Shown one piece after another: positions 910 to 55,017 of a stretch of 64,000 nucleotides of DNA (position 1 is the stretch's first letter; each line of letters opens with the position of its first letter). The position numbers were made by a program, and so were the translations under genes. The DNA is from Malacoraja senta (taxonomy: Eukaryota), in NCBI GenBank assembly GCA_038087875.1, contig CM075994.1, forward strand, positions 1,862,001 to 1,926,000. Direction: 5' to 3'. The notes beneath the pieces are model-generated. The model was not told the DNA's origin, did no database searches, and saw only the letters and a program-made list of their open reading frames with translations.

Positions 910-1160
910 AAAGAACTGCAGATGATGGTTTATTACAAAGACACACACAAAGTGCTGGAGTAACTAAGCAACTCAGGCAGCATCTCTGGAGAAAAGGAAC
1001 AGGTGACGTTTCGGGTCGGAACCCTTCTTCAGACTTACGAAGGGTTCCAACCCGAAACGTCACCTGTTCCGTTTTTCCAGAGATGCTGTCTGACCCACTG
1101 AATTACTCCAGCATTTTCTGTCTATCTTCGGTGTAAACCAGCATCTGTAGTTCCTTCCTA
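910..1160. mobile_element. Palindromic Penelope-derived mini-element with hammerhead core on the minus strand (1005-1032)
   Basis: Two inverted ~120-bp arms. Minus strand reads gtCTGAAGAagggttccgacccGAAACGTCac. The arm sequence matches the 3' end of the GIY-YIG-encoding Penelope copies at 19897 and 49100. Confidence 0.8.
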
Positions 1161-1269
1161 CATGGTTCTGATGAAGGGTTTTCAACCTGCAATGATAATT
1201 CTGTATCTCTTTACACAGATACTGCCCAACCTGCTGAGTGTTTCCAGATTATTCTGTCTTTATTGCAGA

Positions 1270-1535
1270 TTAAGGGAAGAATAAGGGGTAGGCCATTTAG
1301 GACTGAAATGAGGAAAAACTTTTTCTGCCAGAGAGTTGTGAATCTGTGGAATTCTCTGTCACAGAAGGCTGGATGTTTTCAAAAGAGAGCTAGATTTAGC
1401 TCTTAGGGCTAACGGAATCAAGGGACGGGGTACTGATTTTGGATGATCAGCCATGATCATATTGAATGGTGGTGCTGGCTCGTAAGGCTGAATGGCCCAC
1501 TCCTGCACCTATTTTCTATGTTTCTATGTTTCTAT
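1270..1535 (+). mobile_element. CR1 LINE 3' end
   Basis: Matches the 3' end of the 39055-40395 CR1 (RVVNLWNSL, gatcagccatgatcatattgaatgg) with a (TTTCTATG)n tail. Confidence 0.85.
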
Positions 1536-2259
1536 TTCCAGCATCTGAGTTTTAAAAAAAATTGTTTCACGAAGTAACCATACCCTGGGGTGTTGACAGA
1601 ACCTGCAGGTGGGCACCTAAGATGCAGCTTAATCTGGTTAGCATCTCTTCTGAGGTCTACCTTCTCCCTTGTGCAGCTCACATACAAAGGAATTCCCACT
1701 GGCAAGTCTATTAGAGTCATTAACAGCCTGAAGTTAATAAACAGCACTGAGGCAATTATAGCAAAGTCTCTTGCAGGTACAAAAGACAGCAGGTTGGGCA
1801 GAGCAGGGATACAGGGAGCTGGCTTACAAGAATTAAGAAACTCCCTCTGCCGCTAATCATTCCTAACCATGATGGTCCTGTTATTGGTGTTCTGCAAATT
1901 ATTCTACTAAGTCGAATGAAAGATGTGAGAAAATAATTTTCATCTCTCTCCATGCCTATTTAAACATCACTGAAGTTGGCAACTTCCATTACCAATTGCA
2001 TGAGGGATATCAACATTCAGGTACTATTATGTCTACAAGGTACTTCGGCCTCAACTTGTCCATGCCATCCAAGATGTCCCATATACACTAGTCCCACCTG
2101 CCTGCCATCGGCCCATATCCCTCTAAACCTATCCTGTCCATGTACCTATCCAAATGTCTTATAAATGTTGTCATAGTATCTGCCTCAACTACCCCCTCTG
2201 GCAGCTCATTCCAAATACCCACCCACACCCCCTGGAGCGCCACAACCAATCTAACTTTA

Positions 2260-2560
2260 GGGCTGCACAGTGGCAAAGCAGCTGTCTCACCGCACCAGAG
2301 ACCCGGGTTTGATCCTGACTATGGGTGCTGTCTGTACAGAGTGTGTACATTCTCCCTGTGACTGCGTGGGTTTTCTCCGGGCGCTCTGGTTTCCTCCCAC
2401 ATTCTAAAGGCGTATAGGTTTGTAGGTTAATTGACTTTCAGTAAGTTTTAAAAATTGTTACTAGCATGTAGGATAGTGTTAGTGTATGGGGCGATTGCTG
2501 GTTGGTACGGACTCAGTGGGTCAAAGGGCCGTCCGCGCTGTATCTCTAAAGTCTAAACCT
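2260..2560 (+). mobile_element. HE1/V-SINE
   Basis: gacccgggtttgatcc B-box, V-SINE core and CR1-like tail. Confidence 0.8.
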
Positions 2561-5420: not shown

Positions 5421-7028
5421 CTGAAACATAAAGGCCAACCATTATATATAATTACCACTAATATTTTGTCTCATGATGAAATCAACCTAAACTGGCCATA
5501 CCGCTAAAGTCATAGTCATCCAGCACAGAAACAGGCTCTCCGGCCCAACTCTTCCATGCTGACCATGATGCCCCATTTACACTTGTCCCACCTGCCCGCA
5601 TTTGGCCCGTATCGCTCGAAACCTTTCCTATCCGCATACCCATTCAAGTGTCTTTTAAATGTTGTTATTGTACCTGTCTCAACTACATCAACTGGCAGCT
5701 TGTTCTATGAACCCACCTTCTCTGTTTGAAAAAGTTACCCCTCGGGTTCCTATTAAATCATTCCCCTTTCACCTTAAACCTATCTCCTCTGCCTTATGAT
5801 TCTGGGTAAAAAACTGCATTCACCTTATCTATTCCGCACATGATTTTATACACCTCTATATGAGCTGTGAGACTCTACCAGCAGAACCTCTGTGTCACCC
5901 ATTTTGTGTTTTGTTTAAACAATGAACGAGAATGGTTTTGATTGAGAGCGGGATGTTGGCTTAGTGATTCCCTTTCTTCCTTCAGTAGTTCTGCAGCATA
6001 AACATAGATCGGCTGAATTTTACACAAAAAAACAGAAAATGCTGGATGCACTCAGCATCTGTAAGGGTGTTTCTTTTTCCACAGATGCTGACTGACGTCG
6101 TGAGTATTTCCAACTGTTTTAATTTCATATTTCTGGCATCTGCAGCTTTTAGATTTTAATCAGCTGTGTTTTGGTTACTGATTTGCAAGACAGTGCCCAC
6201 TCTCATATTCCACAGATATATCAGCCTTCATGTTGAAATCTATGCTGGGCTTTGAACCTGTAGCTTTCTGACTGAGCAGTGAGAAGGCTTTTAACGAAAA
6301 TTAAACTGTAGTTAAATATAAAAATTAGGTTTGCAAAAATGCTTCCAATGTATCAGGTTTAGGTTTAGGTGTATTATTATCACGTTTACAATGAAAAGCT
6401 ACAAAGCTACACTGGAAAGCTTTGTTTTGCATGCTATTTAAACAGATCAATTATGTCTTAGAGACAATCAATTCAGACTTGTGCAATAGATAGAACAAAG
6501 GGGAAGATACAGAGTGCAGAATATAGTACAGAGGGCATAATGTAGTGCAGAATATCAGTAACAATTAAAATGTCTTCTATGTAAAAGTCCTATTAGTTTC
6601 CTATGTCAAAGGATAATTTGTTTAAGTATATCATTAAATGCAAAATATGTCTAATGCATTATTGAAATGCCTTCTTTGTAAAATTGTTATTAGTGTTTGT
6701 AGTGTAGTGTATATACTGGTAACTGTATCCTTAAGAACTGAGTACCAGGTGGGGTGATTTGAGACATGTGATATATTCATGCTTTAGTCTCGTGAATATG
6801 TGTGTGAGTGTGCGCGGTGTACTTTTGTAAAATATAGAAGACCCACACTGGCAAATGCTTGACTGAAACCTGTGTTTGTTTCTATCTACATGCCACTACC
6901 ATTATATCTTACAGTTTTCTATGTAATGTAAGTACATCATGAAATACAAAATAAGCCTAATGCTACTACTACTGCACAAGACTTTCACTTCATTGAGATT
7001 TTGCATATAAGTGAACACCATCTCTCAC

Positions 7029-7122: not shown

Positions 7123-7147
7123 TGTGGCAATGCTGGATCTCACAGCC

Positions 7148-10415: not shown

Positions 10416-12444
10416 TAACTTTAATACATACAATTGCATCATTTTCATTTCATGTTATAAACATTATTTTGCAGGCAGTCTTCCAGCACAAAGAAAGTTA
10501 AGTACATCTTCAACTTGCATCAATAACTTATGCCAGGAAACTCCATATAAGTTCTCATTGCCAGACTCCGACCCTTCAAATGAATCTCCAGATGGCCAGC
10601 TTTGACCTGCTAGCAAACATTGGACCTGAACATTGCAGGAAATTGCACCTAAGTGTTACCAATTTAAATTCAGTAATTCATAAGTTCATAAGTTATAAGA
10701 GCAGAATTAGACCCATCAAGTCTACTCTACCATTCAATTATGGCTGATCTTCTTTCCTTCTCAACCCGATATTCCTGCCTTTTCCCCATAACCCCTGGCA
10801 CCCTTACTAATCAAGAGTGTCAGGGGTTATGGGTTATGGAGTTGTGAATGTGGAACTTGTTCACGCCCATTTGTCAGCCATTCCCCAAATGCTCTCCATC
10901 ATTTGAACTCTCAAAGGTGAGTTTGTTCTTATTACTAAGAGTAGAGGTGTTCACAGGTATCACACAATCAGTTGCAAGAGTAGTGCATCAACAAAGAACA
11001 GCAGGTGCTGGTTTACACCAAAGATGGACACAAAGTGGAGTAACTCAACGGGTCAGGCAGCATCTCTGGAGAAAACAGATGTGTGATGTCCCAGCTTGGA
11101 ACCCTTCTTATGATTCGGATTCAGACTGAGATTCAGTTACTCCAGCAATTTGTGTCTAGCAAGAGGAGAGTGTGCAGTTTTGGATTCATAGAACATAGAA
11201 GAGTAGAGCACAGGAATAGGCCCAATGCCTGTGGCGAACATGATGCCAAGAACAACTTATCTGCCTGCACATAATCCATATCCCTTCATATTCATGTGCT
11301 TAACCAAAAATCTCTTCATTGTCACCATTGTATCTGCCTCCACCACCATTCCCAGCAGCACTTTATTTTCAGAAATTCCAATTTTATTCCGTACTTCAAA
11401 TTTTTGGGTCATGGTTTGTGAATTCCATAAGGGCAAATTTCCATAACACGAAAGGTTGTAACGCACAGGTCATTATGTAATGTAATTACTGAGGGGACAC
11501 ATCAAAAAAAAATTACTCTTTTATTCCAGAAATGAAATTTAATAGTCCTCGTTTACATATAATTCTCATTTTTGCTTCTGAATTATTAAAAATCAAACAT
11601 ATAGAAGTAGACAGAGCTGGGAATGAGCAAAACACAAGATAATTGAGAGTTTTAGAGGGCATTCGCTTTATTTAAATTAAAGTCATGTTCACTTTCCATC
11701 AGTCATTTCAATAAAGGTGAAAAAAAATGCTAATCCTGGCAAAAAATAGCACAGAAATTAAACTAAATGATGATTGAATATTATAATGCAAGTACTGAAC
11801 ACTGTTACATGAGGAATTCTGCCACAAAGCAATGATTTTAGGAAGGATTTGAGACGACATTCAAGTAACTTATTTGTAACTATGGACTGTTCCTACAATA
11901 TATATGAACGATAGTTAATTAATGGGAAGAGGAGATTTAGTGAACATCCCATTCTCAATGCTGTTGCAGCAGAGCTTGAGTGTAAATGACAAGGCCTCCT
12001 CAATTATCTCAGTCCACTCATAACATCCCACCATCATAGAAGACAGTTTTCAGCTAATTTAATTCATTCCACGTGTTATCAAGACATGGCTGAGTGCTCT
12101 TTATACAACCCCAGCAGAACTGCTGAATGCTTGCGTTTAGTTTAGTTTATGGTCACCTGTACTGAAACGTTTTTGTTGCGCGCTAACCAGTCAGCGGAAA
12201 AAACATACATGATTCCAATCAAGCCACCCATAGTGTTCAGATGAATGATAAATGGAAATTCTGCTGTTGGAGTAGAGTTTTAAAAGAGTGGAGTGATTGT
12301 AATGCGTGATTGCAGATCCACTTCTGTGACCAGCACACAGAGTCGCATGGCTTGTGCGTCATCATGGATCTCTCAATTTAGAGCAAATTTTGCACTTAGT
12401 CAAACTCTCCATTACGCACAGTCCATAAAAAGCAGGGCAATTCT

Positions 12445-13586: not shown

Positions 13587-14203
13587 GTATTAGCTCATCA
13601 AAATAAGCTGAAACATAAAGCATTGCAGATCCTGTGGCTGGTGACAAGCCCATTTGGACTCCTGACCTTGGTGTTCCCAACCTTGACCCTGGCTTGCTTG
13701 CTCACCCAGCACAATCCTGGCCGCACATCTACATTACACTTCAGACGCCATCTCCTTTCACAAACCTCCCCGCATTCCCGACCCTGACCTCACAAGAACG
13801 TGCTTTTGCGGAGAGCGTCAGTAAATAACAAGGACCTAGTAAACATATCAACCAAGACACCCCCAGCCTTTATTGTTCCTTAGAAAAACCACCCAGCTTA
13901 TCCATTTCACTTTACATTTACAATTTTCATTCCCTGGCACCTTCCTTGTTAAATTCCCCTGCACTCTCTCTAGCACTATCATATTGTATTTTTGAGACAC
14001 AAGGAACTACAGATGCTGGAATTTTGAGCAAAACACTAGGAACTGCAGATGCTGGTTTACAAAAGACACAACATTTTGGAGTAACTCAGCGGGTCAGGCA
14101 GCATCTCTAGATAGGTCTGAAAATAGATCGGTCTGAAGAATGATCCCGACCCAAAAGGTCACCTATCCATGTTCTCAAAGATGCTGCTTGACCAGCTAAG
14201 TTA

Positions 14204-14787
14204 AAGGCCTGTCTCGCGAGTCTGCGGTCATTGGCGGCGAAACGAGAAGAATCTGCCGCCATAGACCGCGCACTCGTGAGAACGTACAATTCCGGGGCCG
14301 TGCGGCGGTGTTCCCAACACCGCACGGTGCTAAAATAAAACCGACAATGTCGAAAACTATATACTCACCGCACAACCTCCACCAGTGATGCACGAGTGCG
14401 GCACGGCCGCCCGCACGGGCCGCCGCCAGTGTGGCTCGAGCGCCGTGTGTCAAACCTCCACTGCCACAGCCTCCGCCAGTGAGGCACGTGTGCGACACGG
14501 CCGCAGGCACAGCCACCGCTACAGCGCCACGATCAGGATGGCCGCCGCCACAGCCGCCGCTAGTGAGTCACGTGCGGCGGGCCGACGTCATCGCAGTCGG
14601 CCCGCCCTTTTTTTTACTTACCGCAAGCACGTGGGACCCGCCGTGTTTGAATTAACTCGGCCCCCGCGCAGCATCCGTGCGGCGCTCCGGTGGATAGGCT
14701 CGACGCTCTCACCGTTGCCGCGCGGTCCCCGCTACCAGCGACGCCGCGCTTCACCGCCGATGACCGCAAACAGGTAAGACAGAGCCT
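14204..14787. mobile_element. GC-rich MITE, PIF/Harbinger-like
   Basis: Imperfect ~38-bp TIRs (aaggcctgtctc…tgcggtcattggcggcgaa / ttcaccgccgatgaccgca…agacagagcct) flanked by TTA (14201-14203, 14788-14790). The empty site ctaagTTAgtccag is present in the inverted paralog near 16365-16378. Confidence 0.8.
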
Positions 14788-14809
14788 TTAGTCCAGCACT
14801 TTATGTCTT

Positions 14810-15400
14810 TTTTTAAATTTTTAATATTTTTATTTTACTAGAAGTACAATCGTATGGCACCAAAGTGCCTAATATATATTTTCATAATACATTTTATGTA
14901 CAGCTTCTTATTTTTTTATTATAATAAAGAAGAATAAGAAAAATAAATTAGATAATAAAGTATAGAAAAACGTGAGATATATCGTGTGTGAAGAAGAAGA
15001 AAAAAGAATGAAAGAAGAAAGTTAAAGAAAAGAAAATGGGGAAAAGAGAGTAACATTTTTTTTTAAATTAAAAGAAGTAAGGAGATCATTATTTATACTC
15101 TTGACCATCCTTCGCCCAGTCCCGAGACAATTAGCTTTTACAATTGTGTTGCACCATATGATTCCAAAAAGACGACAAATGGAGACCAACTCGTTATGAA
15201 TTGGTCTGATTTATCTATTAGGAGGAATCGCATTTCCTCAAGATGTGCGGTATCCAACATGCTTGCAATCCACATTTTGAGCGTTGGTATTGGTGTGTTT
15301 TTCCAAAATTTAAGTATTAATTGTTTTGCTATTATTAAACCATAATTAAAAAATAAATTTTGAGATGAATTCAATTTATTCCCATCTTCCATTACTCCAA
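14810..15400 (-). mobile_element. 5'-truncated L1 3' end, same family as the intact L1 at 22751-28356
   Basis: ORF 15138-15392 is near-identical to the last ~85 aa of the 1269-aa ORF2. 16-bp TSD CAGCACTTTATGTCTT at 14794-14809 and 15401-15416. Confidence 0.93.
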
Positions 15401-15442
15401 CAGCACTTTATGTCTTGCACTGAATTTGAGTGCTGGAGGAAC

Positions 15443-15780: not shown

Positions 15781-18249
15781 TCAATAGGTCATGCATAATC
15801 TGTGGAGAGAATGACATGTGATGTGTTGGGTCAGGACTGATCATTGTATTTTCTCTAAATCATTCAATTTGCTACCACATCCCAAAGATGGTCCAGTTGG
15901 TATGTTAATTGGTCACTATTAATTCATCCCTGTATAGGTCGACAGTCAAAGAATCATGGTGGGTTTGTGGGCACGAGACTGAAAATTGTGTGCTGGTCAC
16001 AGAAGTGGATCTGCAATCACGCATTCCAACATTCAGAATTTAATGGTGCTCTCTATACAATTCGTTTTCTGGGAATTAGAAACAAGGAGATTATCTTTTC
16101 CTTCTCAAGTGTCATAGATCGGACATAGGTGCTCCTAGTTATCATACAGTATTACCTTTTGTAAATCCTCAGCATTATTCTTTTGTCCTTGTACAATTTA
16201 AGGGCAAGTGACTCTGACCCAACTTAAAAATAGATGCAGACTGTTGTTCGTCTGTGTGAGCCTGGGAGAGGAAATAGGAAATGTGAGCCTTTCTTGTTTG
16301 GTAGATGAGCCATCATCTCAATTATGGATCCTGACTCAGATACAGTGCAAGACATAACGTGCTGGACTAACTTAGCTGGTCAGGCAGCATCTTTGAGAAC
16401 AAGGATAGGTGACCTTTTGGGTCGGGATCATTCTTCAGACCGATCTATTTTCAGACCTATCCAGAGATGCTGCCTGACCCACTGAGTTACTCCAGCACTT
16501 TGAGTTTTCTTTTGTAAACCAGCATCTGCAGTTCCTAGTGTTAACCAGTGCAGTTGGGCACAGGACAGTATGACTGTTGGCTCCATTGTTTAAACTCTAC
16601 TTTCAGGCAGTCTCTTTGATCATTGCTGAGTCCAGCAAAATGCACTAAGGTTGTTGAAAGTAGTGTCTTAAATGTTCTAAATATAGGTCAGGTGGCATCT
16701 GTGTAGAAAGCAACAAATTAAGCCTTTTAGGTCAGAAAAGATAGAAGTGGAACAAATTTTAAGTAAATGCAGAAACTGGAAGGGATGAGAGCAAATAATA
16801 CGAATAAAGGTTGTAATAAGGGTTAAGGCAGGAGAGATTAAACATCAAAAGTGATGATAATGCAAAGCAAATGTTGATAATAGGACAAATGAAGATACGT
16901 GAGATGGAAATAGCAAAACAAAATGAGAGCAATTGTTATGATCTGAAATTGTGGAGCAGTGCATTGAATAAAACTGAAAAGTACAGAACTGGAAGAAGAC
17001 ACTTTGTAAATTAGGCTTCCTTTGAGGTTCATGAAGAGGAGTGGGAGGCAAAGCACAGGAGGGGACAGAGCAGGGCCGGATTTACGGATACGGATGGCGG
17101 GCGGAGACAGAGAGTGACAGACAGAGAGAGAGAGATAGAGAGAGATAGAGAGGGGGGCCCGCCCAGAGTTGAACGGCAGATATCCTGCCTTGGCTGGAGG
17201 CCGCCTAGATTTCGAGGCCCTAGACTTCAGCCTATGAAACCTAGTGGTAAATCCGGCCCTGCAAGGCCCCTCTAGATCTCGAGGCCCTAAGCTTAAGCTT
17301 GTCTGGGCCGCCGGGTCTCCGCTCTCCACTCGCTCCTCATCCGTCGGCACGGCAGGCCGCCTTGCACATGCGCACAACCACGACCAGCACATCATCGGCC
17401 GCCCTACGTATACGCACTGCCACGGCAACTGGTCGGCGCTGGGGACTTTCTCCCTCGCTTTGAATTGTGGGAGATCTGGCCGCCATTGCTGTCCGGTCGC
17501 CGCCTCGCCGCGACCACTGAAAACCAACGCAGAATCACTCCCTGACCCTGGATCTGGAGTAACTCCCTGGAGTAACGCTTGCTTCTGGTTTCCTGGTCCT
17601 CCATAAATATTCCAAATGGAATTTAAACTGGAGGTGGTGGAGGGCTGAACAATAACAGCCTATTGCATTTTATCTGTTTATTTATTGTGTATATATATGG
17701 TCTATGGTATATAAACACACTGAACTTTTATCTCCTGTTCTGAATTATGTTTTTATATTCTGTTGTGCTGCTGCAAGCAAGAATTTCATTGCCCTATCTG
17801 GGACACATAACAATAAAACTCTCTTGACTCTTGACTTGGACTTAACCAAAAAAGGGTTATTCGGGAAAAAAGAGGTACCTTAAATTTAGTTGCATCTAGT
17901 TGGGTAACTATGGTAGGGTGAAGACTATTCCATGCTTTAATTGTGCGAGGGAACTCCATGGAGCAGCCAGCAACTCTGGATAGAAGAAATTGGGTGACGT
18001 TTCGGGTAGAGACCCTACTTTACACACCCTCTGGTTTTAGTATTTTTGGTTTAATTTAAAGATACAGCATGGAAACAGGCCCTTCGGCCCACCGAGTCCA
18101 CGCCGACCACCCATCACCCGTACACTAGTTCTATCCCACACATTAGCAGAGTAAGTCAAGAGTCAAGAGTGTTTTACTCTCTCACGTCCCAGTTAGAACA
18201 ATGCAATCCTTACTTGCAGCAGCACAACAGAATATGTAAACATTTTTTC

Positions 18250-22750: not shown

Positions 22751-22933
22751 GTGCGCGTGAACAAGTCCTCTTGCTCATTTAAAAGTCCGTTATCTAATGA
22801 TGTTTTCGTTATGCAAACCAAGCAGCTCCGTTGAGTTATTTTTAACTTTAAAACGGCTTTTTGATAATTTTTACGGGAGTGAAGCTCACTGCAGCGTCCT
22901 CAGTGTTCCATGACGCTACCGGAACAAACTTAA

Positions 22934-30451: not shown

Positions 30452-30484
<33 letters not shown>

Positions 30485-30511: not shown

Positions 30512-30524
30512 AAAAAGAAAGGAA

Positions 30525-30840: not shown

Positions 30841-30844
30841 TTGA

Positions 30845-38329: not shown

Positions 38330-38770
38330 GACCTTCACACAACCTCCATTCCATTTACACCTCACGCTGCCTCAACAAAGCCATCAGCATAATCAAGGAT
38401 GAGTCACACGCCAGTCACTCTCTCTTCTCCCCTCTCCCATCAAGCAAAAGGTATAAACGTGTGAAAACGTTCACCTCCAGATTCAGGGAGTTTCTTCGCA
38501 GCTGTTATCAGGCAACTGAAACATTCTATCACCAATTAAAAAGTGGACCTGAACTAATGTCTATCTCATTGAAGACTATCGGACTATCTTTAATCAGACT
38601 TTACTGGATTTTATGTTGCACTAAACATTATTCCCGATGTCATGTATCCCGTACACTGTGGATGGCTCAACTATAATCATGCATTGTCATTCCACTGACT
38701 GGTCAGCATACAACAAAAGCTTTTCACTGTACATGTGACAATGAACTAAACTGAAGTAAACTAAACTAAA
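38330..38770 (+). mobile_element. Rex1/Babar-like 3' fragment
   Basis: LHSIYTSRCLNKAISIIKDESHASHSLFSPLPSSKRY; tail ends (aaact)n. Confidence 0.7.
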
Positions 38771-39054
38771 GATGTCCCACCCAGAGTACAATCGCTGGTC
38801 TTGCTACTTTCAGTGCTTCTTCCAAATATCATCCAGTATGTAGGAGTAGGGCTTTGTCAGTTGAAGATGGACATCCGGTAGTAATCCATGCAGAAGTAAT
38901 GAATGTTGCTGCTGTCTAGCTGACACAGGGAACAATTAAGTATTGCTGTGACAGTTGCATGACAAGCTTCCAGCCAATGAAATAGAATTCTCAAAGAAAC
39001 TCAAGGAAGTAAAACTCAGAGTAACTCAGTGAGTCAGGCAGCATTTGTGGAGAA

Positions 39055-40395
39055 CATCCATTTGGAAAGTGGTGAAATCATTGGACAAAGTCAGCATGGA
39101 TTTACGAAAGGTAAATCATGTCTGACGAATCTAATAGAAATTTTCGAGGATGTAACTAGTAGAGTGGATAAGGGAGAACCAGTGGATGTGGTATATCTGG
39201 ACTTTCAGAAGACTTTCGACAAGGTCCCACATAAGAGATTAGTATACAAGCTTAAAGCACACGGTATTGGGGGTTCAGTATTGATGTGGATAGAGAACTG
39301 GCTGGCAAACAGGAAGCAAAGAGTAGGAGTAAACGGGTCCTTTTCAGAATGGCAGGCAGTGACTAGTGGGGTACCGCAAGGCTCAGTGCTGGGACCCCAG
39401 CTATTTACAATATATATTAATGATTTGGACGAGGGAATTGAATGCAACATCTCCAAGTTTGCGGATGACACGAAGCTGGGGGCCAGTGTTAGCTGTGAGG
39501 AGGATGCTAGGAGGCTGTAAGGTGACTTAGATAGGCTGGGTGAGTGGGCAAATGCATGGGAGATGCAGCATAATGTGGATAAATGTGAGGTTATCCACTT
39601 TGGAGGCAAAAACAGGAAAGTAGACTATTATCTAAATGGTGGCCGATTAGGAAAAGGGGAGATGCAACGAGACCTGGGTGTCATGGTACACCAGTCATTG
39701 AAAGTAGGCATGCAGGTGCAGCAGGCAGTGAAGAAAGCAAATGGTATGTTAGCATTCATAGCAAAAGGATTTGAGTATTGGAGCGGGGAGGTTCTACTGC
39801 AGTTGTACAGGGTCTTGGTGAGACCACACCTGGAGTATTGCGTACAGTTTTGGTCTCCAAATCTGAGGAAAGACATTCTTGCCATAGAGGGAGTACAGAG
39901 AAGGTTCACCAGACTGATTCCTGGGATGTGAGGACTTTCATATGAAGAAAGACTGGATAGATTCGGCTTGTACTCGCTAGAATTTAGAAGATTGAGGGGG
40001 GATCTTATAGAAACTTACAAAATTCTTAAGGGGTTGGACAGGCTAGATGCAGGAAGATTGTTCGCGATGTTGCGGAAGTCCAGGACAAGGGGTCACAGTT
40101 TAAGGATAAAGGGGAAATCCTTTAGGACCGAGATGAGAAAAACATTTTTCACACAGAGAGTGGTGAATCTCTGGAATTCTCTGCCACAGAAGGTAGTTGA
40201 GGCCAGTTCATTGGCTATATTTAAGAGGGAGTTAGATGTGGCCCTTGTGGCTAAAGGGATCGGGGGGTATGGAGAGAAGGCAGGTACAGGATACTGAGTT
40301 GGATGATCAGCCATGATCATATTGAATGGCGGTGCAGGCTCGAAGGCCCGAATGGCCTACTCCTGCACCTATTTTCTATGTTTCTATGTTTCTAT
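39055..40395 (+). mobile_element. 5'-truncated CR1 ORF2 with in-frame stops
   Basis: [38 protein letters not shown]; (TTTCTATG)n tail. Confidence 0.95.
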
Positions 40396-40674
40396 GACCC
40401 GCTGAATTCCTCCAGCGCTTTGTGTTTTACTCAAGATTCCAGCATCTGCAGTTTCTTGGGAAGTGTTCAATTTTCCATGATTTGTTGGGTCCCATGCAGT
40501 GGTACTGTTGCACACTCATAGTGATCTGAGCTGCAGTCTTCCCCAATGGTCTTCAATCAGCACGTCAACATTCTCATACTCCATAGGGAAGAGAAACAGA
40601 TGTGCTCAGCTGAGCAGTCCAGAGACCCAACCATCAGATCATTCAGGAGCGATAATCACAGATGGAGGTCATTG

Positions 40675-41185
40675 TCATAGTCATACAGCATGAAATCGGG
40701 CCAATCAGCTCAACCTGCCCCCACCAACCAGCATGTTCCATCTACACTAGTCCCACTTGCCAGCATTTAGCCCTTATCCGTCTAAACCTGTCCTATCCAT
40801 GTACAGTACCTGTCTAAATGGTTCTTAAACGTTGCAATAGTGCCTACCTCAATTACCTCTGGCAGCTTGTTCCATACACTCACCGCCATTTGTGTGAAAA
40901 AGTTACCCCTTAGGTTCCTCTCAAATCTTTCCACCTTCACCGTAAACCTATGCCCTCTGGTTCTTGCCCTACTCTGGGCAAGAGACTCTGTGCGTCTACC
41001 TGATCTATTCCTCGCATGATTTTGTACACCTCTATAAGATCACCCCTCATCCTCAGGCGCTCCAGGGAATAGACTCCCAGCCTGCTCAACCTCTCCCAAC
41101 AGCTCAGACCGTCGAGTCCTGGCAACATCCTTGTAAATCATCTCTGTACCCTTTCCAACTTAACAACATCTTTGCTATAACATGG
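40675..41185 (-). mobile_element. CR1 3' fragment
   Basis: MLPGLDGLSCWERLSRLGVYSLERLRMRGDLIEVYKIMRGID. Confidence 0.85.
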
Positions 41186-42099
41186 TAAAGTCTAAAATGA
41201 TGGGAAATTGTGAGCTGTCCACCACACAAATTCACACACATTGTGTAAAGTTCTAACAATCAACATACTGTGATATACAGTAAATGGCCACGATGTCAAG
41301 GAGGGTGAGAATGCTTCTAAGAACCACTGGTGACAAAAAATGCATAACTACTTTAACAGAGATACAGGGCAAAAACAGGGATGACCCGATACTACCATCT
41401 GGAGGCTTCATTTAGTACCATTTACTAATTAAGGAGGTCTAGTTATATATTTGTACTGATGGAAATCTCTCTCCCTTACATCGTGGGTAACTTCTGTTTA
41501 GGCCAGAGTAATCCTGGTTTGAAAATTTGTAGGCAATAATCTTATTGATTCACAAGTATTTTAGAATTACATAGACAATGAAATATAGCAAAAAAAGACA
41601 CAAAGTTCTGGAGTAACTCAGCAGATCAGGCAGCATCTCTGGAGAACAGATAGGTGACGTTTTGGGTCGGGACCCTTCTTCAGACTCAACTTGATTAACT
41701 CAAGACACAGAACTACAGACGGCAGCCAAGAAAATCTTTGGCAGAATGCAGCAGTTTTGTATAGTAGCTGAACATACTGTTAAACTTAAGCATATGATGC
41801 ACATGTTCAGACATGTGCAATGACACCAATCACAATGCGATAATCTTTTTGACATCATGAACATAATGTTCGTTTGAACATGCATGGCCTGCAGGTGGCG
41901 TGGATCATATAGAAGCAACTCTTTGGAAGATGTGAGGCCTGCTTTTATGCTACATGAAGCAGATCATCCAGCTGGGCCTCGGGTGCAGAGCATGGCTCAA
42001 CCTTTAAAATGTTTATCTTGCCTTTTTGCCCACATGCCACCTCCCCCAGGTCACGGCTTATGTAAGGTCAATGCTTCAAAAGGTGTTGGGAAGGGGGAA

Positions 42100-42730: not shown

Positions 42731-43718
42731 AATTAAACTATCCTAAATTAAAGGAAATTGTGATCTAATGGATTGGATTGGAGGGTCACACTTAAGTATT
42801 CCGTGAAGAAAATTGGGATCTCATGGTTTGGATTGGGTTAGTGGAGGGAAGGGGATAGATCGACTGCCAGAGGTTTTGTATTCATGATCGGTTACAGGAA
42901 GGGTTGTCAGAGCCAGCATCAGGTCAGGATCTGGTGTGTATTTATGTATGTATGTATGTGTGTATATATTTAACAAGAGCTGTGTGCCCAGAGGGGGCCA
43001 CGCATCAGACTCCATGGCTGAGGACCTGCATTGCTAGTAGTGATTCGACCATCCTGGCAACCAATATATAATGTATTCACAATGTAACAGGATGCAGAAT
43101 ACTCCACTGGTGGCATATGCATCCGAAATGTAAGCGGACAATTAGTATTAGAACTTAATTTAAACTGAAGTGGATGATCTACGTATACATTTGCAACATG
43201 ATGTTTCTTGCTCTATTAAACAAAAGGGAAAGAACATTTCAGTATGATGTTCTAAACGGGATATAATGAATGTGCCATTTTTGTTCACATTTAGCTTTTA
43301 TACAGCATGGTTGTTAAATCAGTGTGGTTCGATGCTCTTTGTGACAAACTATTCACTCTACTGAGATATAATGCGCAAACTGTTGTTGTAAAATCCACCA
43401 TAACCTTGGGTTTTTGTGTTTCGTTGCTACTACTACACACTATTAGCAAACAGAAAGGTAGCCTCCTGTCACCATCTCCAAGGCCCTCTCTAATGCCATT
43501 GTGCACGATTGCTTTTCAGCTGTTAAGTATTACTAATTTGGTTCACAAACAAAGTCTAATTGAACATGGATTGCAAGTAAATTTAAACAGGAGAGTGTCT
43601 CTCTATGTAAACAGAAATTTCCATGGCTACTTTCCTTAGAGATTTATCATCTTTCTTACTCACTAGGAAGGAACTGCAGATGTGTTAAAGAAGGAACTGC
43701 AGATGCTGGAAAATCGAA

Positions 43719-43869
43719 GGTACACAAAAATGCTGGAGAAACTCAGCGGGTGCAGCAGCATCTATGGAGCGAAGGAAATAGGCAACGTTTCGGCCCGAAA
43801 CGTTGCCTATTTCCTTCGCTCCATAGATGCTGCAGCACCCGCTGAGTTTCTCCAGCATTTTTGTGTACC
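43719..43869. repeat. Near-perfect 151-nt palindrome (Penelope-terminus-derived)
   Basis: 75-bp arms 43719-43793 and 43795-43869, 74/75 complementary, 1-nt spacer. Confidence 0.95.
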
Positions 43870-44240
43870 AAGGAACTGCAGATGTTGGTTTACACCAACA
43901 ATAGGCACAAAATGCTGGAGTAACTCAGCAGGTCAGGTAGCATCTCTGGAGAAAAGGAATTCTGAAGAAGGGTCTCAACCCGAAACGACACCTATTCCTT
44001 TTCTTCAGAGATGCTGCCTGACCCGCTGAGTTACTCCAGCATTTTGTGTTTTACTCGCCCTTATATTTGCTCATTCCCTATTTATAATTAATTTTTGTGG
44101 AGGGTACAGGTGCCGCTGGCAAGTGATTTATCCCTCACTGATCTTGAGATGTTGCTGGTAGGAATTCTTGATTGATTGATTGAATACTTTATTGTCACAT
44201 GTGACAAGTCACAGTGAAATTCTTTGCTTGCATACCCAAG

Positions 44241-47814: not shown

Positions 47815-49195
47815 AGGTTGAACAGTTACTCTTCCAGGCGTACACTGGCCCTATCCCCGAACTCTACCTCTGCTACATTGATGACGGCATCGATGCTACC
47901 TCCTGCACCCCATGCAGAACTCACTGACTTCATTAACTTTACTGCTAATTTCCATCCTGCAGTCAAATTCACTTGGACCATCTCCCTACCGTTTCTTGAT
48001 CTCACCGTCTCCATCACAGGAGACAGACTATCAATTGACAACTATTATAAACCCACTGATTCCCACAGCTATCTAGACTACAATTCTTCCCACCCTGCTT
48101 CCTGTAGATTCTATAACCTACTCCCAATTCCTCCGTCTACGCCACATCCACGCCTAAGAGGAGGTGTTCCTTACCAGGACATTGGAAATGTCTTCATTCC
48201 TTAGGGAACAGGGGTTCCTCTCTTATATCATAGACGAGGCCCTCACTATGGCCTCCTCGATACACCGTAGCTCCGCTCTTGCTCCCCCTCCCCCGATTCG
48301 TAACAAAGACAGAGTCCCCCTTGTCCTCACCTTCCATGCAGCACATAATTCTCCGACATTTTTGCCACCTCCAACGGGATCCCATCACTAGTCACATCTT
48401 CCCATCTCCACCTCTTTCTGCAGAGACCATTCCCTCCGCATCTCCCTGGTCAACTCATTCCTTTCCACCCAAACCACCCCCTCCCCAGGTACTTTCCCCT
48501 GCAACCTTAGGAGCTGCAACACCTGTCCCTATACCTCCTCCCTTGACTCCATCCAAGGATCCCGACAGTCTTCTCAGGTGAGGCAGAGGTCCACGCACCT
48601 CCTCCAACCTCATCTACTATATCCGCTGTTCCAGGTGTGGGCTCCTGTATATCGGCGAGACCAAGGGCAGGCTCGGCGATCATTTCGCTGAACACCTCTG
48701 CTCAGTCCGCCTAAACCTACCTGATCTCCCGGTTGCTGGACACTTTAACCTCTCATTCCCACACTGACCTTTCTGTCCGGGCCCTCCTCCATTGCCAGAG
48801 TGAGGCCCAGCGCAAGTTGGAGGAACAGCACCTCATACTTCGCTTGGGCAGCTTACACTCTAGCAGTATGAACATTGACTTCTCTAACTTCAAGTAACCC
48901 TTGCTTTCCCTCTCTCCACCACTCCCCCTTCCCAGTTTTCCTACCAGTCTTACTGTCTCCGACTACATTTTATCTCTGTTTGGTTTGTTACCTTCTTCCA
49001 GCTAACAATAATCTATTCTACATTTTCCTTGATCTTCATTCCCTTTGCCCAGCTTTCACACCTTCACACTTCCTTATCTATCTCCCTCCCCCCTGGCGTT
49101 AGTCTGAAGAAGAGTCTCGACCCAAAACATCACTCTTCTCTCCAGAGATGCTGCCTGTCCCGCTGAGTTACTCCAGCTTTTTTGTGTCTATCTTT
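47815..49195 (+). mobile_element. Decayed Penelope-like element (RT C-terminus and GIY-YIG) with degenerate hammerhead terminus
   Basis: YIDDG, LPFLDLTVSI, YYKPTDSHSYLDYNSSHP, LYIGETK; 3' agtctgaagaagagtctcgacccaaaacatcact at ~49101-49134. Confidence 0.9.
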
Positions 49196-50967
49196 GGAGG
49201 GATTTAGGCCGGACGTAGGCATGTGGAAATAGCTCAATTAAGCAACTTGGTCTGCATGGATGAGTTGGGCCGAAGGGCCTGTTACCATGCCGTATCAATG
49301 GTGCTTTTATTGTCTCATGTGTGAAGTGCTAACACAGTGAAATTATTTTCTTATAAACAGTCCAGTAGAGTATTTCCATGCCCCCAATCTCCGATTAGCG
49401 AGTGTACGGGAATAGTCTATTGATCCCGCATGCAAGAGGTGCCATGTTTTGGCGCCACTTCCAAAGTCCACACTCTAGTTCTTAAGAGCGGTGCCTGTTC
49501 CAGGCAAGTCCGAGACTGTTGTGGGCCTCTAGCAGGTCAGTGGGTCCGGCAGCATCTCTGGAGAACATGGATAGATGACGTTTCAGGTTGGGGGACCCTT
49601 CTCCCAACCCAAAATGTCAACTATACAATTTCCCCAGAGATGCTGCCTGACCCACTGAGTTACACCAGTACGTTGTGTCTTTTTTTACACCAAAAGAATA
49701 ACGTCTAAATGTATGGTATAAGTACTTATAAAGAACATAATGTGCATGTGTGATCGGAATTTGAAACTAGTTGGTAGGGATTCCTCTACTCCTGATGTGT
49801 CGCCTGAAATCCAGAACAAATTGTTACAACCATTAAGACTGATCAATCCTGAAGATTTTTGTGTGGGTTTGATATTGGCAGTTTCAACTCTACAGAAACT
49901 GTTTTTTTGTCAGCAACTAGAAGGATGGACATTGTGCTTTCCATTATTGAATTTAATTTAAAAGACATCTCAAAATTGAAATGTGCCTTTTCCAGGTTGC
50001 TAATCAGCATGCTTGCAGAGGGCCAACAAGTGTTTTGTTTCAGTCAATCACGAGGAAACTTAGTAGCATACAAGGCCCAAGGCGCTGCACATCCGTGAAA
50101 AGACCTGCTACAACAAAAAGCCTTTCCTTTGCATTTTCCACAAAGGAGATGTACGGGTAATTTTTTTTAAAGAGTGGTGGGTGCCTGGAACACACTGCCA
50201 GAGGTGGCGGCGGACGCAGAGGCAGATGCAATAGTGGCATTTAAGAGGCTTTTGGATAGGCACATACGTGTAGATATGTAGGCAATGGAGGGATATTGAT
50301 CATGTGCAGGCAGATGAGATTAGTTTATCTTGTTCGGCACAGACATTGTGGGCCGAAGGGCCTGTTCCTGTGCTATAATATACTGTGTGAAGCACCCGAG
50401 GAAATCAGGCAAATTGAGATTTGATAACACTTACAAGATTGCAAGGGAGAAGGGCTTTGGATTTGAGTGTTGTGTGGCAAGGGATGAAGATTAGAAAAGG
50501 GTCATGGATAGTTATAAATAAAATCGAAAGATGTGGGTGGGTGCGTTGCTAGAAAGCAGTCCCTATTGCTATTTTCTGTAATGTGAAGCTGTATCATCAG
50601 CAAATTTGATATTTATTTATCCCCCCTCCTCTCCCCTCTCTATATCTTACATTTTTAGGTAGTGATCTGTGAATTCTGCAAGGGCAAATGTTCAGAAACG
50701 TAACTGCTCTAATTCAGGGGTTACCTGCATTCAGTGGTGGTCATAGTCAGGAAGAGAGGTTGGTATAAAACAAAAAATACTGGAAATACTTCAGGTTAGG
50801 CAGAATCTGTGGAAAGAGGAGGAGATAATGTTTCATAGAACATAAAACAGTACAGCACAACAGACCCTTCATCCCACAATGTCTGTGCTGAACATGATGC
50901 CAAAACCAACTCTTGTCTCTCTGCACATAATCCATATCCTTTCATTTCCATATCTCCATCCTATCCG

Positions 50968-51262
50968 ATGGGCAGCGGTGGAGTTGCTGCCTTACAGCGC
51001 CAGAGACCCAGTTCGAATCTGACTACGGGTGTTGTGTTTATGGTGTTTGTACGTTCTCCCCGTGACTATGGGTTTTCTCCGAATGTTCCTGTTTTCACCC
51101 AAACTCCAAAGACGTACAGGTTTGTAGGTTAATTGGCTTCAGTAAGAAACATTGTAAATTGCCCCTAGTATGTAGGATAGTGCTAATGTACAGAGATTGC
51201 TGGTCAGCGTGGGCTTGATGGGCTGAAGGGCCTGTTTCCGCACTGTATCTCTAAAATAAACT
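50968..51262 (+). mobile_element. HE1/V-SINE
   Basis: Head, core and tail as at 3266-3585. Confidence 0.8.
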
Positions 51263-51287
51263 ATTCCATAAACCTTGTCTATTTCAG

Positions 51288-52393
51288 AAGGCAAGGCAAG
51301 GCAAGGCAAGTTTATTTGTATAGCACCTTTCAACCACAAGGTAATTCAAAGTGCTTTACATAAAACATTTAAAGCATTTGAAAGAAACACATATAAAATG
51401 ACATTTAGATATAAAATGATTATTAGATTATTCAGATAAAATTACAAAATTAAAAGCAATCAAATAAAATATTTAAAATAGAATAAAACCAGGAATAGAA
51501 GTTACAGTGCAGTATAGGTAATTAATAAATTGTATTGTTTACTGAAAGGCAGCGGCAAACAGAAAAGTCTTCAGTCTAGATTTAAAAGAGCTGAGAGTTG
51601 CAGCAGACCTGCAGGTTTCTGGGAGTTTGTTCCAGATATGTGGTGCATAAAAACTAAATGCTGCCTCTCCATGTTTAGTTCTGACTCTGGGGCCACAGAG
51701 CAGACCTGTCCCAGACGATCTGAGAGGTCTGGGTGGTTCGTAGCTAAGCAGAAGATCAGAAATGTATTTTGGCCCTAAACCATTCAGTGCTTTGTAAACC
51801 AACAGTAGTATTTTGAAATCAATTCTTTGACAGACAGGAAGCCAGTGTAAAGACCTCAGAACTGGAGTAATGTGATCTACTTTTTTGGTCTTAGTGAGGA
51901 CTCGAGCAGCAGCATTCTGAATTAACTGCAGCTGTCTGATCGACTTTTTAGGGAGACCTGTAAAGACACTGTTACAGTAGTCGAGCCTGCTGAATATAAA
52001 TGCATGGACAAGTTTTTCCAAATCCTGCTGAGACATAAGTCCTTTAATCCTTGATATATTCTTTAGGTGATAGTAGGCTGACTTTGTGACTGTTTTTATG
52101 TGGCTGTTGAAGTTCAGGTCTGAGTCCATGACTACTCCTAAGTTTCTGGCTTGGTTTGTTGTTTTTAGCATTACCATTTGAAGCTGGGTGCTAACTTTTA
52201 ATCGTTCTTCCTTGGCTCCAAAATCAATTATTTCAGTTTTTTCTTTGTTTAATTGGAGAAAATTCTGGTTCATCCAATCGTTGATTTGCTCAATGCATCT
52301 ACTCAGTGCTTGTATTGGACTATAGTCTCCTGGTGATATTGTTATGTAGATTTGTGTGTCGTCTGCGTATCTATGGCAACATATTTTGATGTT
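51288..52393 (-). mobile_element. 5'-truncated L2-clade LINE with an open ORF2 C-terminus and (CCTTG)n tail
   Basis: YADDTQIY, NFLQLNKEKTE, ARNLGV, SRLDYCNS, LQLIQNAAARVLT, HITPVLRSLHWLPV, RIDFK; 3' aagcactttgaa…gaaaggtgct stem-loop and aataaa(cttgc)n. Confidence 0.93.
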
Positions 52394-55017
52394 TGTCCAT
52401 TCATCAGAGCTGAAGAAGCGAGAAAGCATGCAGAGGGTGGGAAAGGAATGGATAAAATAGAGGTCAATGGTTAACAAAGGGGATCAATGGTTGGATGAGA
52501 TTAGCTTGCACCAGCAGATCAATGGGTGGAGCTATGGGTTTGGGGAGGCCAACTGCAGATCAGCCATGGACAAAGACTAGTGTAGCAGGATTAAGAGGCA
52601 TATACTACTGTTTCTTGTGCTCCTTTGTGAAGATCACAAACTTGTGACTGAGGTAACGGGTGAGATTTGTGGGTTATTTGATCAGCACTGAAGCTGTAAA
52701 AAAATTGGCCTCATCCTGAATGTAAATTGCTGACCGAGCATCCAAGAGTGCAAAACACATAGGTGGATGGCAAGGCAATTGTCTGGGTTTTTCCAGACAT
52801 TACTTTTTAGGAGGAACTGGAAGAAATATTAGACCATGTAACTATCAGTATGAGCTTCATTTTCCACTAATTTCAATCACGCTCTATTTTTCATTAGGTC
52901 TCAAAAAACATGCGATTCAACTTCCAGACCTTATTATCTCTTAAATATATATTAAAGTACATTAATTGCAAGATTAAATATGAATTTGATTTTAACAACA
53001 TTCACACAAAATTGTTTACATCTGCCAATTTACTCAGTTTTGAAAAACTGCATCGGCCATTAATGTACTTTATTGTTCAGTTATTATCACATTTCCAAAA
53101 TATATTAAGTTCTTTTAAATATTTTTTGCCTCTGTCCATTTTTTTCCTATGCTTTTTGTACTAGATTTAATAATGAATGATATATAATTATTAATTAATG
53201 AATTATATATAAATATATAAGAAACACTTCTTGATTCAGTTTCCAGTATTGAGGAATAATTCTTTAATTCCTTTGATTAAGATAACACACAACTGTTTGG
53301 GGTGTTCACAGAATGTTGTGCCTTTTCGATAGTTGGCCAATAGGAATTTATTTTGGAAAAAACCCACATAACAAATCTGTGCCATCTGCCATGTTCCTAA
53401 TATTCATCCCATTTTCTAAATATGTCCACAGCTCTTCTGTCATTCAAACTCTATACATAGTTTGGAAATTTCAAACTGCATTGTTGTTCCCTTCCAATGG
53501 GAAGTCTGTTAATTTCTGAAGGACTGCTATACATTTAATTGACACACAAGAAACTGTGGATGCCAGAGCTTGAAGGAAAAGTCAAAGTGCTGGAGGAACT
53601 CGGCGGGTCAGGCAGCATCTGGGCAGCGAACGGAAAGGCAAGGTTTTAGGTTAGGACCCTTCTTCAGTCTTTGTGTGTCGTGCATTTAATGTTGCTTTGG
53701 TTGCATTAAGAATCATTAAATATACAAATGTTTACTGTACACAATAAATTGTAAGAACAGGTCTCCCACAAGTCCCAGGTTAAATCCTGACCTCCGGTGC
53801 AGTCTGTGTGAAGTTTGCATGTTCTCCTTATGACTGCCTGCGATTCCTCGACGTTCTGCAATTTTCTCCCTCATCTCAACGATTGCTGTTAGGCTGATAT
53901 ACCATGGCAATTAATCTAGTTTAGATGGTTGGTAGGAAAATTAGGGAGTGGTTGGTGCTCATGTGTAAAGTTACAGAAAGATAATTGCAGAAAAGAATTG
54001 TGAAGAGAGCTGTCGTGGACAGTGGACAGAATGGCCTATATTGTAAGGAAATATGTAGGAGAAAAATATATTCTTGTTTACCCAATGACTTTTTCCCCGA
54101 ATTTGATTTATGATGCTGAGTATTTAGTAATATTGTAAACTGCAAATAAACTGCACAATAATGATTAGCTATAAGGCACAGCCAAGAAGAAAAATAGTAG
54201 ACACAAAGAGCTGGAGTAACTCAGCGAGTTAGGCAGCATCTCTGGAGAAAAGGAATAGGTGATATTTCAGGTTGATATTGTTTAGAAATACAGCATGGAA
54301 ATGGCCCCATCAGCCCATCGAGTGCATTTCGAACATGGATTACCTAGTTTTGTTATCCCACTTTCTCACCCACTCCAAAAACATTAGGGGCAAATTTTAA
54401 GAGCCTCATAAACCCCCGTAATCTTTGGGATGTGGGAGGAAACCAAAGCACATGGAGTAAGCCCTCGTGGTCATAGGAAGAATGCGCAAATTCCTATATT
54501 AAGGAAAATTAAGGAAAAGAATATTAGCCTGAACAAGGGTCTCGACCCAAGACGTCACCTATTCATGTTCTCCAGGGATGCTGCCCGACCTGCTAAATTA
54601 CTCCAGCACTTTGTGTCCTTTAAGGATTCATATCACAGAGTAGACAAGTCAGGTAAAAGTATGAGGTACAATCATCTAATTCCATATACTGGACATGGAC
54701 AAATTGCAAACAGCTTCAAACCTTAACAAAATAATGTTTAAATATATTGCTTTCTATATGCTTTAATAAACAAATTACAAATTTTACTTCGGAGTCACGT
54801 GAGTGACTACGTGAAGAAGCCCGCCAGCCCGCATGCGCGTCAATACGTCTAACGCATGGCGCACGACTGGCTGGCAGGCGGGTCGCTCCTCCAGCGGTAA
54901 GTTTCAAACCCTGCAGGTAAGTTTTCGAATTTATTTTCAGGTTGTGATTTTTACTTGCAGGAAGCTCTTTTACAGAGTTCCTGCTGGATGACATTCCGGG
55001 GTCGAAATCCTGACGAG

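What the first reader, a model, noticed from the sequence alone, without database searches (positions are those of the whole stretch)
910..54620. Dense family of palindromic Penelope-derived mini-elements carrying minimal hammerhead ribozyme cores
Seen: a ~100-130-bp unit (gaactgcagatgctgg…gctggagtaactcagcgggtcaggcagcatc…gacgtttcgggtcgagacccttcttcag) recurs about 15-20 times, near 910, 6035, 10995, 14040, 16350, 17960, 19230, 31975, 33535, 41595, 43690, 43870, 49530, 53550, 54200 and 54530. It is usually arranged as an inverted dimer and matches the terminus of the GIY-YIG-encoding Penelope copies here. Its other strand reads CUGAAGA-A-GGGUC(nn)GACCC-GAAAC-GUH; intact 28-nt cores lie on the minus strand at 1005-1032, 19959-19986, 20683-20710 and 33598-33625. 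Known: Penelope-like elements carry minimal type I hammerheads with a palindromic short stem III, thought to act as dimers; an extra A after CUGANGA is tolerated in the CChMVd viroid hammerhead. Inference: these protein-free hairpin units may be a retrozyme-like non-autonomous RNA parasite mobilised by Penelope RT/EN rather than only abortive insertions. At least two subfamilies are visible (tctctggagaaaagg and tctatggagcgaagg).
Basis: partly seen in the sequence, partly recalled or inferred. Interest (0 to 1): 0.72.

Follow-up and report, generated by a model that had tools for sequence, protein, structure and literature searches.

The report
Mirror-image stumps of a Penelope retrotransposon
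These short mirror-image repeats in what looks like a shark or ray genome are the cut-off, ribozyme-bearing ends of an ordinary Penelope-type jumping gene, left behind in pairs when it lands, rather than a separate self-cutting RNA parasite.

Summary
The repeat is real: 36 arms in 64 kb, all 16 listed positions confirmed, four minimal hammerhead cores (one with a G·U first pair). It is the 3' end (hammerhead plus 'tail') of a Neptune-like Penelope element; three arms still sit on GIY-YIG/RT fragments. The pairs are textbook Penelope insertions lacking the ORF: tails outward, own target-site duplication in 6 of 10, the 30-40-nt tail extension on one side in 6 of 8, and nine different centres among nine independent pairs. 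Retrozyme features fail: no tandem same-strand units, no ends at the cleavage site as a rule, no pair with two intact cores, and the antisense arm buries the ribozyme. Public reads show no dominant junction. Two residues of interest: 14 of 17 arms that get that far stop at the ribozyme's 5' edge, and one decayed palindrome was copied once, 0.9 kb away. The scan reached the same reading earlier in another (shark) genome. Verdict: new member of a known kind; modest interest.

The parts
902..1161 (.). P1: tails-out pair, both arms with long tail; centre at ~1033, at the 5' edge of the hammerhead; intact core 1005-1032 (minus); no TSD found
   Evidence: (123-nt arms, 81%)
1167..1259 (+). old solo arm, core decayed
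6030..6149 (.). old decayed pair/arm of a more distant subfamily
   Evidence: (E 8e-4)
10984..11158 (.). P2: pair, long tail left, short right; 10-bp TSD (1 mismatch)
14033..15432 (.). P3: secondary copy of P4 (inverted, ~93% identical, same spacer, same dead core, plus ~15 nt of P4's flank), inserted in an older element tail; later split by a TIR element (14204-14788) and an L1-type 3' end (14810-15400, 16-bp TSD)
16350..16543 (.). P4: pair, short tail left, long right; 7-bp TSD; core dead (G12 lost, stem II broken)
17950..18022 (-). solo arm, partly eroded (a further solo arm at 15778-15838)
19228..19346 (-). arm with long tail, ends in stem II
19896..20646 (-). 5'-truncated Penelope-like copy, subfamily B: linker CX4CxxC + GIY-YIG ORF end (20080-20646), pyrimidine tract, hammerhead 19959-19986, short tail
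   Evidence: (PF01541, E 7e-4, below the curated cut-off)
20621..30875 (-). second 5'-truncated copy in partial tandem with the first: tail + hammerhead 20683-20710 + tract (to 20753), split by a 9.7-kb nest of L1-type elements, resuming at ~30520-30875 with the GIY-YIG end
   Evidence: colinear alignment, tblastn
31974..32140 (.). P5: pair, short left, long right; 11-bp TSD (1 mismatch)
33535..35862 (.). P6: subfamily B pair, intact core 33598-33625 (minus); right arm starts at or just after the cleavage site and is split by a TIR element (33663-35794); 9-11-bp TSD
35972..41686 (.). scattered solo arms at 35972, 36064, 37087, 39019, 40395 and 41595
43684..43869 (.). P7: young subfamily B pair (arms 99% alike), centre in the 15-nt quasi-palindrome of stem II (~43794), so neither arm has a complete core; inserted into the long tail of P8 with a 16-bp exact TSD
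43663..44050 (.). P8: subfamily A pair (arms 95% alike), long tail left, short right; 8-bp TSD (1 mismatch); centre 43960/43961; core lacks U16.1
47817..49190 (+). 5'-truncated, frameshifted Penelope-like copy, subfamily A: RT end, thumb, GIY-YIG, tract, decayed hammerhead (49104-49131), short tail
49531..49683 (.). P9: decayed pair, centre ~49602, no TSD found
53546..53670 (-). solo arm with long tail (a further eroded arm at 50770-50834)
54198..54618 (.). P10: two arms tails-out but 250 bp apart with a SINE-like piece between; no TSD; may be two solos

Best explanation
Each mini-palindrome is one abortive integration of a Neptune-like Penelope element (PLE). Shown: the arm is the element's 3' end (hammerhead + tail); two arms lie 5' end to 5' end with tails outward; the pair is bounded by one TSD of 7-16 bp; usually one arm carries the 30-40-nt tail extension; centres vary. 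Inferred (about 55% for this sub-step): the element's RT/GIY-YIG protein nicks both strands of the target with a stagger, and each 3'-OH primes reverse transcription at one of the two start sites in the tail; both cDNAs stop after ~60-130 nt, most often at the ribozyme's 5' edge, and are joined through short self-complementary words (CAG-N-CTG in front of the core, or stem II) and repaired. The alternative sub-step is fold-back self-priming of one cDNA. The hammerhead is a passenger that was functional, if at all, in the parent element's RNA; after insertion it decays and is buried in the hairpin.
For: Arm continuous with GIY-YIG/RT fragments in 3 copies; nearest proteins are shark and ray PLE proteins at 59-63% (3 best of 10 hits), one of which reads on into a hammerhead-like frame at the same place (P0003 C-terminus; back-translation is my inference). 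TSD in 6 of 10 pairs against 4.35% of 2000 random flank pairs, p~1e-6 (element ends set by eye). Long tail on one side only in 6 of 8 scorable pairs (p=0.14 alone), the signature described in PMC8557442 and PMC3846280 (passages). Nine different centres in 9 independent pairs. Partner arms are of one subfamily and are each other's nearest match in the 4 pairs P6-P9. In public runs the best-supported strand-switch joint stands in only 2 of 108,529, 5 of 89,733, 2 of 9,745 and 1 of 10,778 laid records. Both-strand nicking, a predicted protein dimer, two RT start sites that define the tail and a dispensable ribozyme are reported for a Poseidon element in vitro (PMC11167929).
Against: 4 of 10 pairs have no TSD (P1, P3, P9, P10). 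P3/P4 share a centre, so a palindrome can be copied whole. 5' ends are not random: 14 of the 17 arms that reach +6 stop within the next 12 nt (expected 1.9 at the arm's own stopping rate), which a discrete short RNA template would also give. The read test used one subfamily-B reference at 85% likeness, mostly on assembled contigs that break at perfect palindromes and for which the tool left some joints uncounted; 233 joints were not shown. The in vitro data come from another clade (Poseidon, not Neptune). No whole genome was held.
Confidence: 0.8

Rival explanations
1. Retrozyme-like parasite: the protein-free hairpin is transcribed, self-cleaves, perhaps circularises, and is amplified as its own family by PLE RT/EN.
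For: Very high density (one arm per 1.8 kb); arms outnumber ORF ends about 6 to 1 in RNA reads of a relative (4709 vs 811); frequent variants among laid copies fall in loop II and at N17, none of the 40 shown at a conserved core base (555 rows not shown); animal retrozymes are reported to derive from PLE ends (bioRxiv 10.64898/2026.07.22.740005).
Against: No tandem array of the unit among 51 TRF rows; no pair with two intact cores and only 2 of 10 pairs with one; a transcript through a pair has one sense core, paired to its antisense arm (P(stem II)=0.00 in P1 and P6); units do not as a rule begin or end at the cleavage site; no place where many RNA molecules begin or end, and both strands equally covered (poly(A), fragmented, another species, so weak); both subfamilies belong to ORF-bearing copies.
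Confidence: 0.06
2. Non-autonomous re-mobilisation without the ribozyme: read-through transcripts of old palindromes present a tail to the PLE protein and are retro-copied whole, so part of the population is a loose secondary family.
For: P3 begins at the long-tail end of P4 (an RT start site), runs through the whole palindrome and ~15 nt into P4's flank including one TSD copy, and sits in another element's tail without a TSD. pLTR-driven mobilisation in trans is reported in PMC3846280 (passages).
Against: 1 case among 10 pairs, only ~0.9 kb from its source, which a DNA-templated repair insertion explains equally well; no dominant joint in reads.
Confidence: 0.09
3. Collapsed remnants: the insertions were once long (inverted end + ORF + end) and lost their middle later by microhomology-mediated deletion.
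For: Centres at short self-complementary words (P1, P7); such deletions are reported for PLE copies (PMC3846280 Discussion).
Against: The youngest pair (P7, 99%) is already minimal; solo arms stop at the same edge as paired arms; none of the nine adjoining pairs keeps an ORF remnant at its centre.
Confidence: 0.05

Closest known systems
Endonuclease-positive Penelope-like elements with inverted 5'-truncated copy and optional 'tail' (PMC3846280, PMC8557442)
   Same: Head-to-head inverted ends, variable TSD, 30-40-bp tail on one side, short palindromes at the inverted junction, partial tandems, hammerhead in the terminal repeat.
   Different: Here both halves are usually cut to ~60-130 nt, so no ORF is left, and the density is very high (one arm per 1.8 kb in this window).
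Minimal hammerheads (min-HHR) of metazoan PLEs (PMC4209133)
   Same: No loop 3, palindromic 15.2-16.2, extra base between A9 and G10.1, G10.1-C11.1, mostly solo copies, also opposite-strand doubles 100-700 bp apart (reported for Schistosoma).
   Different: Helix II 4 bp + tetraloop and helix I about 2 bp; cartilaginous fishes are not named in the parts of the main text I read (supplements not seen).
Neptune clade PLEs
   Same: CX4CxxC linker upstream of a GIY-YIG domain with the CCHH motif, C-terminal endonuclease, vertebrate host.
   Different: Clade placement rests on the motif only; no RT tree was built and Nematis shares the linker.
Non-LTR retrozymes of animals (PMC7229834; bioRxiv 10.64898/2026.07.22.740005)
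   Same: Non-coding, type I hammerhead, related to PLE terminal repeats.
   Different: Retrozymes are head-to-tail tandems with two or more same-strand ribozymes that release monomers and circles; these units are inverted pairs or solos with at most one intact core.
Poseidon element of Anolis (PMC11167929)
   Same: Two 3' end points (short and long tail) downstream of the hammerhead, as two RT start sites would give; insertion into the element's own terminal repeat (P7 in P8, P3 in an older tail).
   Different: Other clade; no ATG in the core here in most copies; activity not tested here.

Membership tests
EN+ Penelope-like element insertion | Terminal repeat continuous with an RT + C-terminal GIY-YIG ORF | tested here: met
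   3 arms run on into ORF ends; Pfam GIY-YIG E 7e-4, below the curated cut-off, but phmmer E 1e-67 to RT/GIY-YIG proteins
EN+ Penelope-like element insertion | Inverted 5'-truncated copy, head to head | tested here: met
   10 of 10 pairs tails-out; one further neighbouring couple (35972/36064) is tail-to-tail and was not counted as a pair
EN+ Penelope-like element insertion | Variable-length TSD around the whole insert | tested here: met
   6 of 10 pairs, 7-16 bp, null 4.35%
EN+ Penelope-like element insertion | 30-40-bp tail often at one end only | tested here: met
   6 of 8 scorable independent pairs; not significant alone
Neptune clade | CX2-5CxxC linker plus CCHH motif (linker absent in Penelope/Poseidon) | tested here: met
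   C59-x4-C64-xx-C67 and C102xxC105 before YIG; definition from PMC8557442 passages
Neptune clade | RT phylogeny groups with Neptune | not tested
   only broken RT pieces in the window; no reference set at hand
Minimal PLE hammerhead | Conserved core, extra base 9/10.1, G10.1-C11.1, palindromic 15.2-16.2 | tested here: met
   3 canonical cores + 1 with G·U; Rfam models do not detect it
Minimal PLE hammerhead | Self-cleavage as dimer or with protein help | not testable with these tools
   folding favours other structures in monomer and two-strand models
Non-LTR retrozyme | Head-to-tail tandem with two or more complete same-strand hammerheads | tested here: not met
   no tandem of the unit; the only same-strand intact couple (19959/20683) is a partial tandem of ORF-bearing copies
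Non-LTR retrozyme | Monomer bounded by the cleavage site; linear and circular RNA | tested here: inconclusive
   genomic units are not bounded by the cleavage site as a rule; no pile-up of RNA ends in one poly(A) run of a relative, which is a weak test
Independent non-autonomous family | Many dispersed copies with the same centre and ends | tested here: not met
   9 centres in 9 independent pairs; one local duplicate; no dominant joint among those listed; genome-wide census not possible

The most novel reading that the evidence does not exclude
The hammerhead itself sets where reverse transcription stops, and the palindromes are a mass fossil record of that step. One arm typically ends at the ribozyme's 5' edge (14 of 17), directly behind a pyrimidine tract + CAG that looks like a splice acceptor, and a second class of arms starts at or just after the GUC/GUU cleavage site (P6, P8, perhaps P4; the best-supported strand-switch joint in all four runs has this geometry). 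If real, these are run-off copies of self-cleaved RNA: in vivo evidence that PLE hammerheads cut during transposition, and a way to read the two-ended integration mechanism from a very large number of junctions. In this window the second class is not above chance (6 of 34, p=0.08), the read joint lies where the reference's own mutations break alignments, and an RT stall at the folded ribozyme would give the same ends.
Probability: 0.2. Interest if true: 0.6.

Novelty: new member of a known kind. Interest (0 to 1): 0.3.

Why it matters
For annotation: this abundant shark/ray repeat looks like a MITE or a miRNA hairpin (Rfam's best sub-threshold hits are miRNA precursors) but is Penelope debris. 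For mechanism: how PLEs build their inverted ends and what their hammerhead does in vivo are open questions in the papers read; ORF-less pairs with TSD, one long and one short tail and short, countable junctions are a clean data set to decide between two-ended priming and self-priming, and to ask whether cleaved RNA is ever used as template. The long perfect hairpins may also be a source of double-stranded RNA in host transcripts (inference; untested).

Tried and rejected
No genome held, so no census. The core pattern gave 0 matches in viral contigs and 0 in metagenome contigs. Rfam: no hammerhead family; miRNA hits are below gathering scores and reflect the hairpin only. The look-up of sequencing runs: no RNA holder listed on record for 41000-45400; not used as evidence. 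Contig depths were not used as copy numbers. The fall in read depth directly upstream of the core (21-fold) was rejected as a measure of truncation because other subfamilies have a different upstream tract (loose-end consensus at 19991); the arm/ORF ratio (5.8) is also inflated because subfamily A ORFs fall under 85% likeness. My first idea that 20621-20753 was the 5' repeat of an internally deleted, retrozyme-like unit was dropped when it proved to be the end of a second truncated copy. My first label 'Poseidon' was dropped for Neptune-like. The clustering p-values used hand-set counts and those included two mis-scored ORF-linked arms; one search gives the corrected ones (10 of 34 in -6..+3, scan-corrected p 0.03 to 0.001; 14 of 34 in -6..+6, p 8e-4 to 7e-6). 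P3's two arms were left out of these counts as duplicates of P4. MITE/DNA-transposon reading rejected: variable 7-16-bp TSDs, asymmetric ends and continuity with an RT ORF. Literature searches found no paper describing these mini-pairs in cartilaginous fishes; the library lacks most subscription journals and Repbase, and supplements of PMC4209133 and of the 2026 preprint (which covers one Chondrichthyes genome) were not seen.
Full report
Setting. The window is vertebrate DNA, almost certainly from a cartilaginous fish: the GIY-YIG fragment at 20080-20658 has its three best relatives in proteins that their sources label whale shark, devil ray and zebra shark (59-63% identity), and an exon of the glycoprotein hormone alpha chain lies at 2931-3239. 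No whole genome was held.

Observation. An iterated DNA profile finds 36 arms of a ~94-nt unit and none in ten shuffles. The four cores are at the stated coordinates on the minus strand. They fit the minimal hammerhead of metazoan Penelope-like elements (PLEs) as described in PMC4209133 (parts 1-2 of 4 read): no loop 3, a self-complementary word at stem III, an extra base after A9, G10.1-C11.1. Three are canonical, the one at 19959 has a G·U first pair; 12 of the 16 arms that span the core have lost a conserved base or pair. Rfam does not see them.

What the unit is. Read on its own strand the unit is: ORF stop, a pyrimidine tract, the hammerhead, and about 65 nt of tail, with an optional further 30-40 nt. 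Three arms are still attached to ORF ends: 19896-20646; 20621-20753, which resumes at ~30520 after a 9.7-kb nest of L1-type elements; and 47817-49190. The first two form the partial tandem typical of PLEs and carry subfamily B; the third carries subfamily A. The subfamilies are therefore those of the parent elements. The protein has a CX4CxxC linker and the CCHH motif, which by PMC8557442 (passages) points to Neptune or Nematis and away from Penelope/Poseidon.

The pairs. Ten pairs have the two arms joined at their 5' ends with tails outward. Six of ten are bounded by a direct repeat of 7-16 bp that abuts both ends, against 4.35% of random flank pairs: each pair entered as one event. Six of eight scorable pairs have the long tail on one side only. 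PMC3846280 (passages and Discussion) and PMC8557442 (passages) describe just this: an inverted 5'-truncated copy, head to head, a tail at one end, palindromes at the junction. Centres, given as the two 5' end points relative to the first core base, are -3/+6, +4/+49, -2/+45, -2/+69, -2/+32, +21/+11, +33/-1, +5/+12 and +14/-3: nine different ones.

Retrozyme test. Animal retrozymes are head-to-tail tandems with same-strand ribozymes that release monomers and circles (PMC7229834, passages; bioRxiv 10.64898/2026.07.22.740005, parts 1-3 of 5). The unit forms no tandem array here. No pair has two intact cores; two have one. A transcript through a pair carries one sense core paired with its antisense arm: P1 folds at -173 kcal/mol, z=-20, and stem II has probability 0.00 in P1 and P6. 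Even isolated arms do not favour the ribozyme fold (stem II 0.00-0.48, helix I 0.00), in line with low or protein-assisted activity reported for PLE hammerheads (PMC4209133; PMC11167929, parts 1-2 of 4).

Public reads. Four runs were laid on 19870-20319 at 85% likeness: contigs of the best-holding organism (X2), contigs of two other organisms (X3, X17) and raw poly(A) RNA reads of a relative (X23). The family is abundant in all four. In X23 the arm is covered about 4700-fold and the ORF end about 800-fold, with both strands alike on the arm; no place was listed where many molecules begin or end. The best strand-switch joint stands in 2, 5, 2 and 1 records; 233 weaker joints were not shown, and for X2 and X3 some were not counted. 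This fits many different centres and no dominant family, with the limits stated in the Against line.

What does not fit pure randomness. (1) Of 17 arms that reach +6, 14 stop within the next 12 nt, where 1.9 would be expected. The stop lies just behind a pyrimidine tract ending in CAG; in Drosophila virilis Penelope an intron ends at the 5' end of helix I (PMC4209133). A transcript start, a splice junction, an RT stall or junction formation at CAG-N-CTG could each explain it; I cannot separate them. (2) Six of 34 arms start at +29..+36, just after the cleavage site (p=0.08), and the best read joint has that geometry, but it falls where the reference's own changes break alignments. (3) P3 is a 93% identical inverted copy of P4, about 0.9 kb away once later inserts are removed; P4 has its own TSD and P3 includes one copy of it plus flank, so P4 is the source. 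The copy starts at the long-tail end, as a PLE retro-copy would, but both share the same dead core, so the ribozyme was not needed, and a DNA-templated repair event is not excluded.

Mechanism. Shown: anatomy, TSDs, tail asymmetry, variable centres. Inferred: staggered nicks on both strands, two primings at the two tail start sites, early stops, joining by short homology. The basis is PMC11167929, where a Poseidon protein nicks and extends both strands, is predicted to be a dimer, starts at two sites that define the tail and does not need ribozyme cleavage; the rival is self-priming on an antisense template (PMC3846280).

Earlier notes. A note of this scan on another shark genome (e1-7858806) reached the same reading; I saw it after and count it as agreement, not as evidence. 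[quoted passage not shown]

Verdict. Real, well explained by known PLE biology; a new member of a known kind. Interest 0.3, carried by the non-random stop at the ribozyme edge and the value of the junctions for a mechanism test.

Noticed in passing
window:2931-3239 (minus): Exon of the glycoprotein hormone alpha chain (Pfam Hormone_6, E 7e-37); the window lies at or next to this gene.
   Followed up: partly
window:24319-28128 (plus): Uninterrupted 1270-aa L1/Tx1-type ORF2 (AP endonuclease, RT, zinc finger), part of a 9.7-kb nest of at least three related LINE pieces (20754-30519) that splits a Penelope copy.
   Followed up: partly
window:54900-59560: DIRS-like remnant: RT pieces, a tyrosine-recombinase piece (58505-59023, PF00589 E 2e-6), a 99% 80-nt inverted repeat at 59251-59556 and a match back to 54781-54843.
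   Followed up: no
window:14204-14788 and 33663-35794: Two elements with short terminal inverted repeats (Harbinger-like by recalled end motif, not tested), each inserted at nearly the same part of a Penelope arm.
   Followed up: no
window:43668-43885 and 13999-14033/15432-15445: Penelope stumps inserted into tails of older stumps (P7 into P8 with a 16-bp TSD; P3 into an older tail), hinting at a preference for the element's own end as target.
   Followed up: partly
window:20080-20319 (run X23): RNA reads over the ORF end show about a 2:1 strand bias while the arm shows none; if the library is stranded in the usual way the excess is antisense to the ORF. Strandedness unknown.
   Followed up: no
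window:19340-19362 and 16441-16456: Short spacers next to arm ends look like degenerate restarts of the first half of the hammerhead, beginning at -1.
   Followed up: partly
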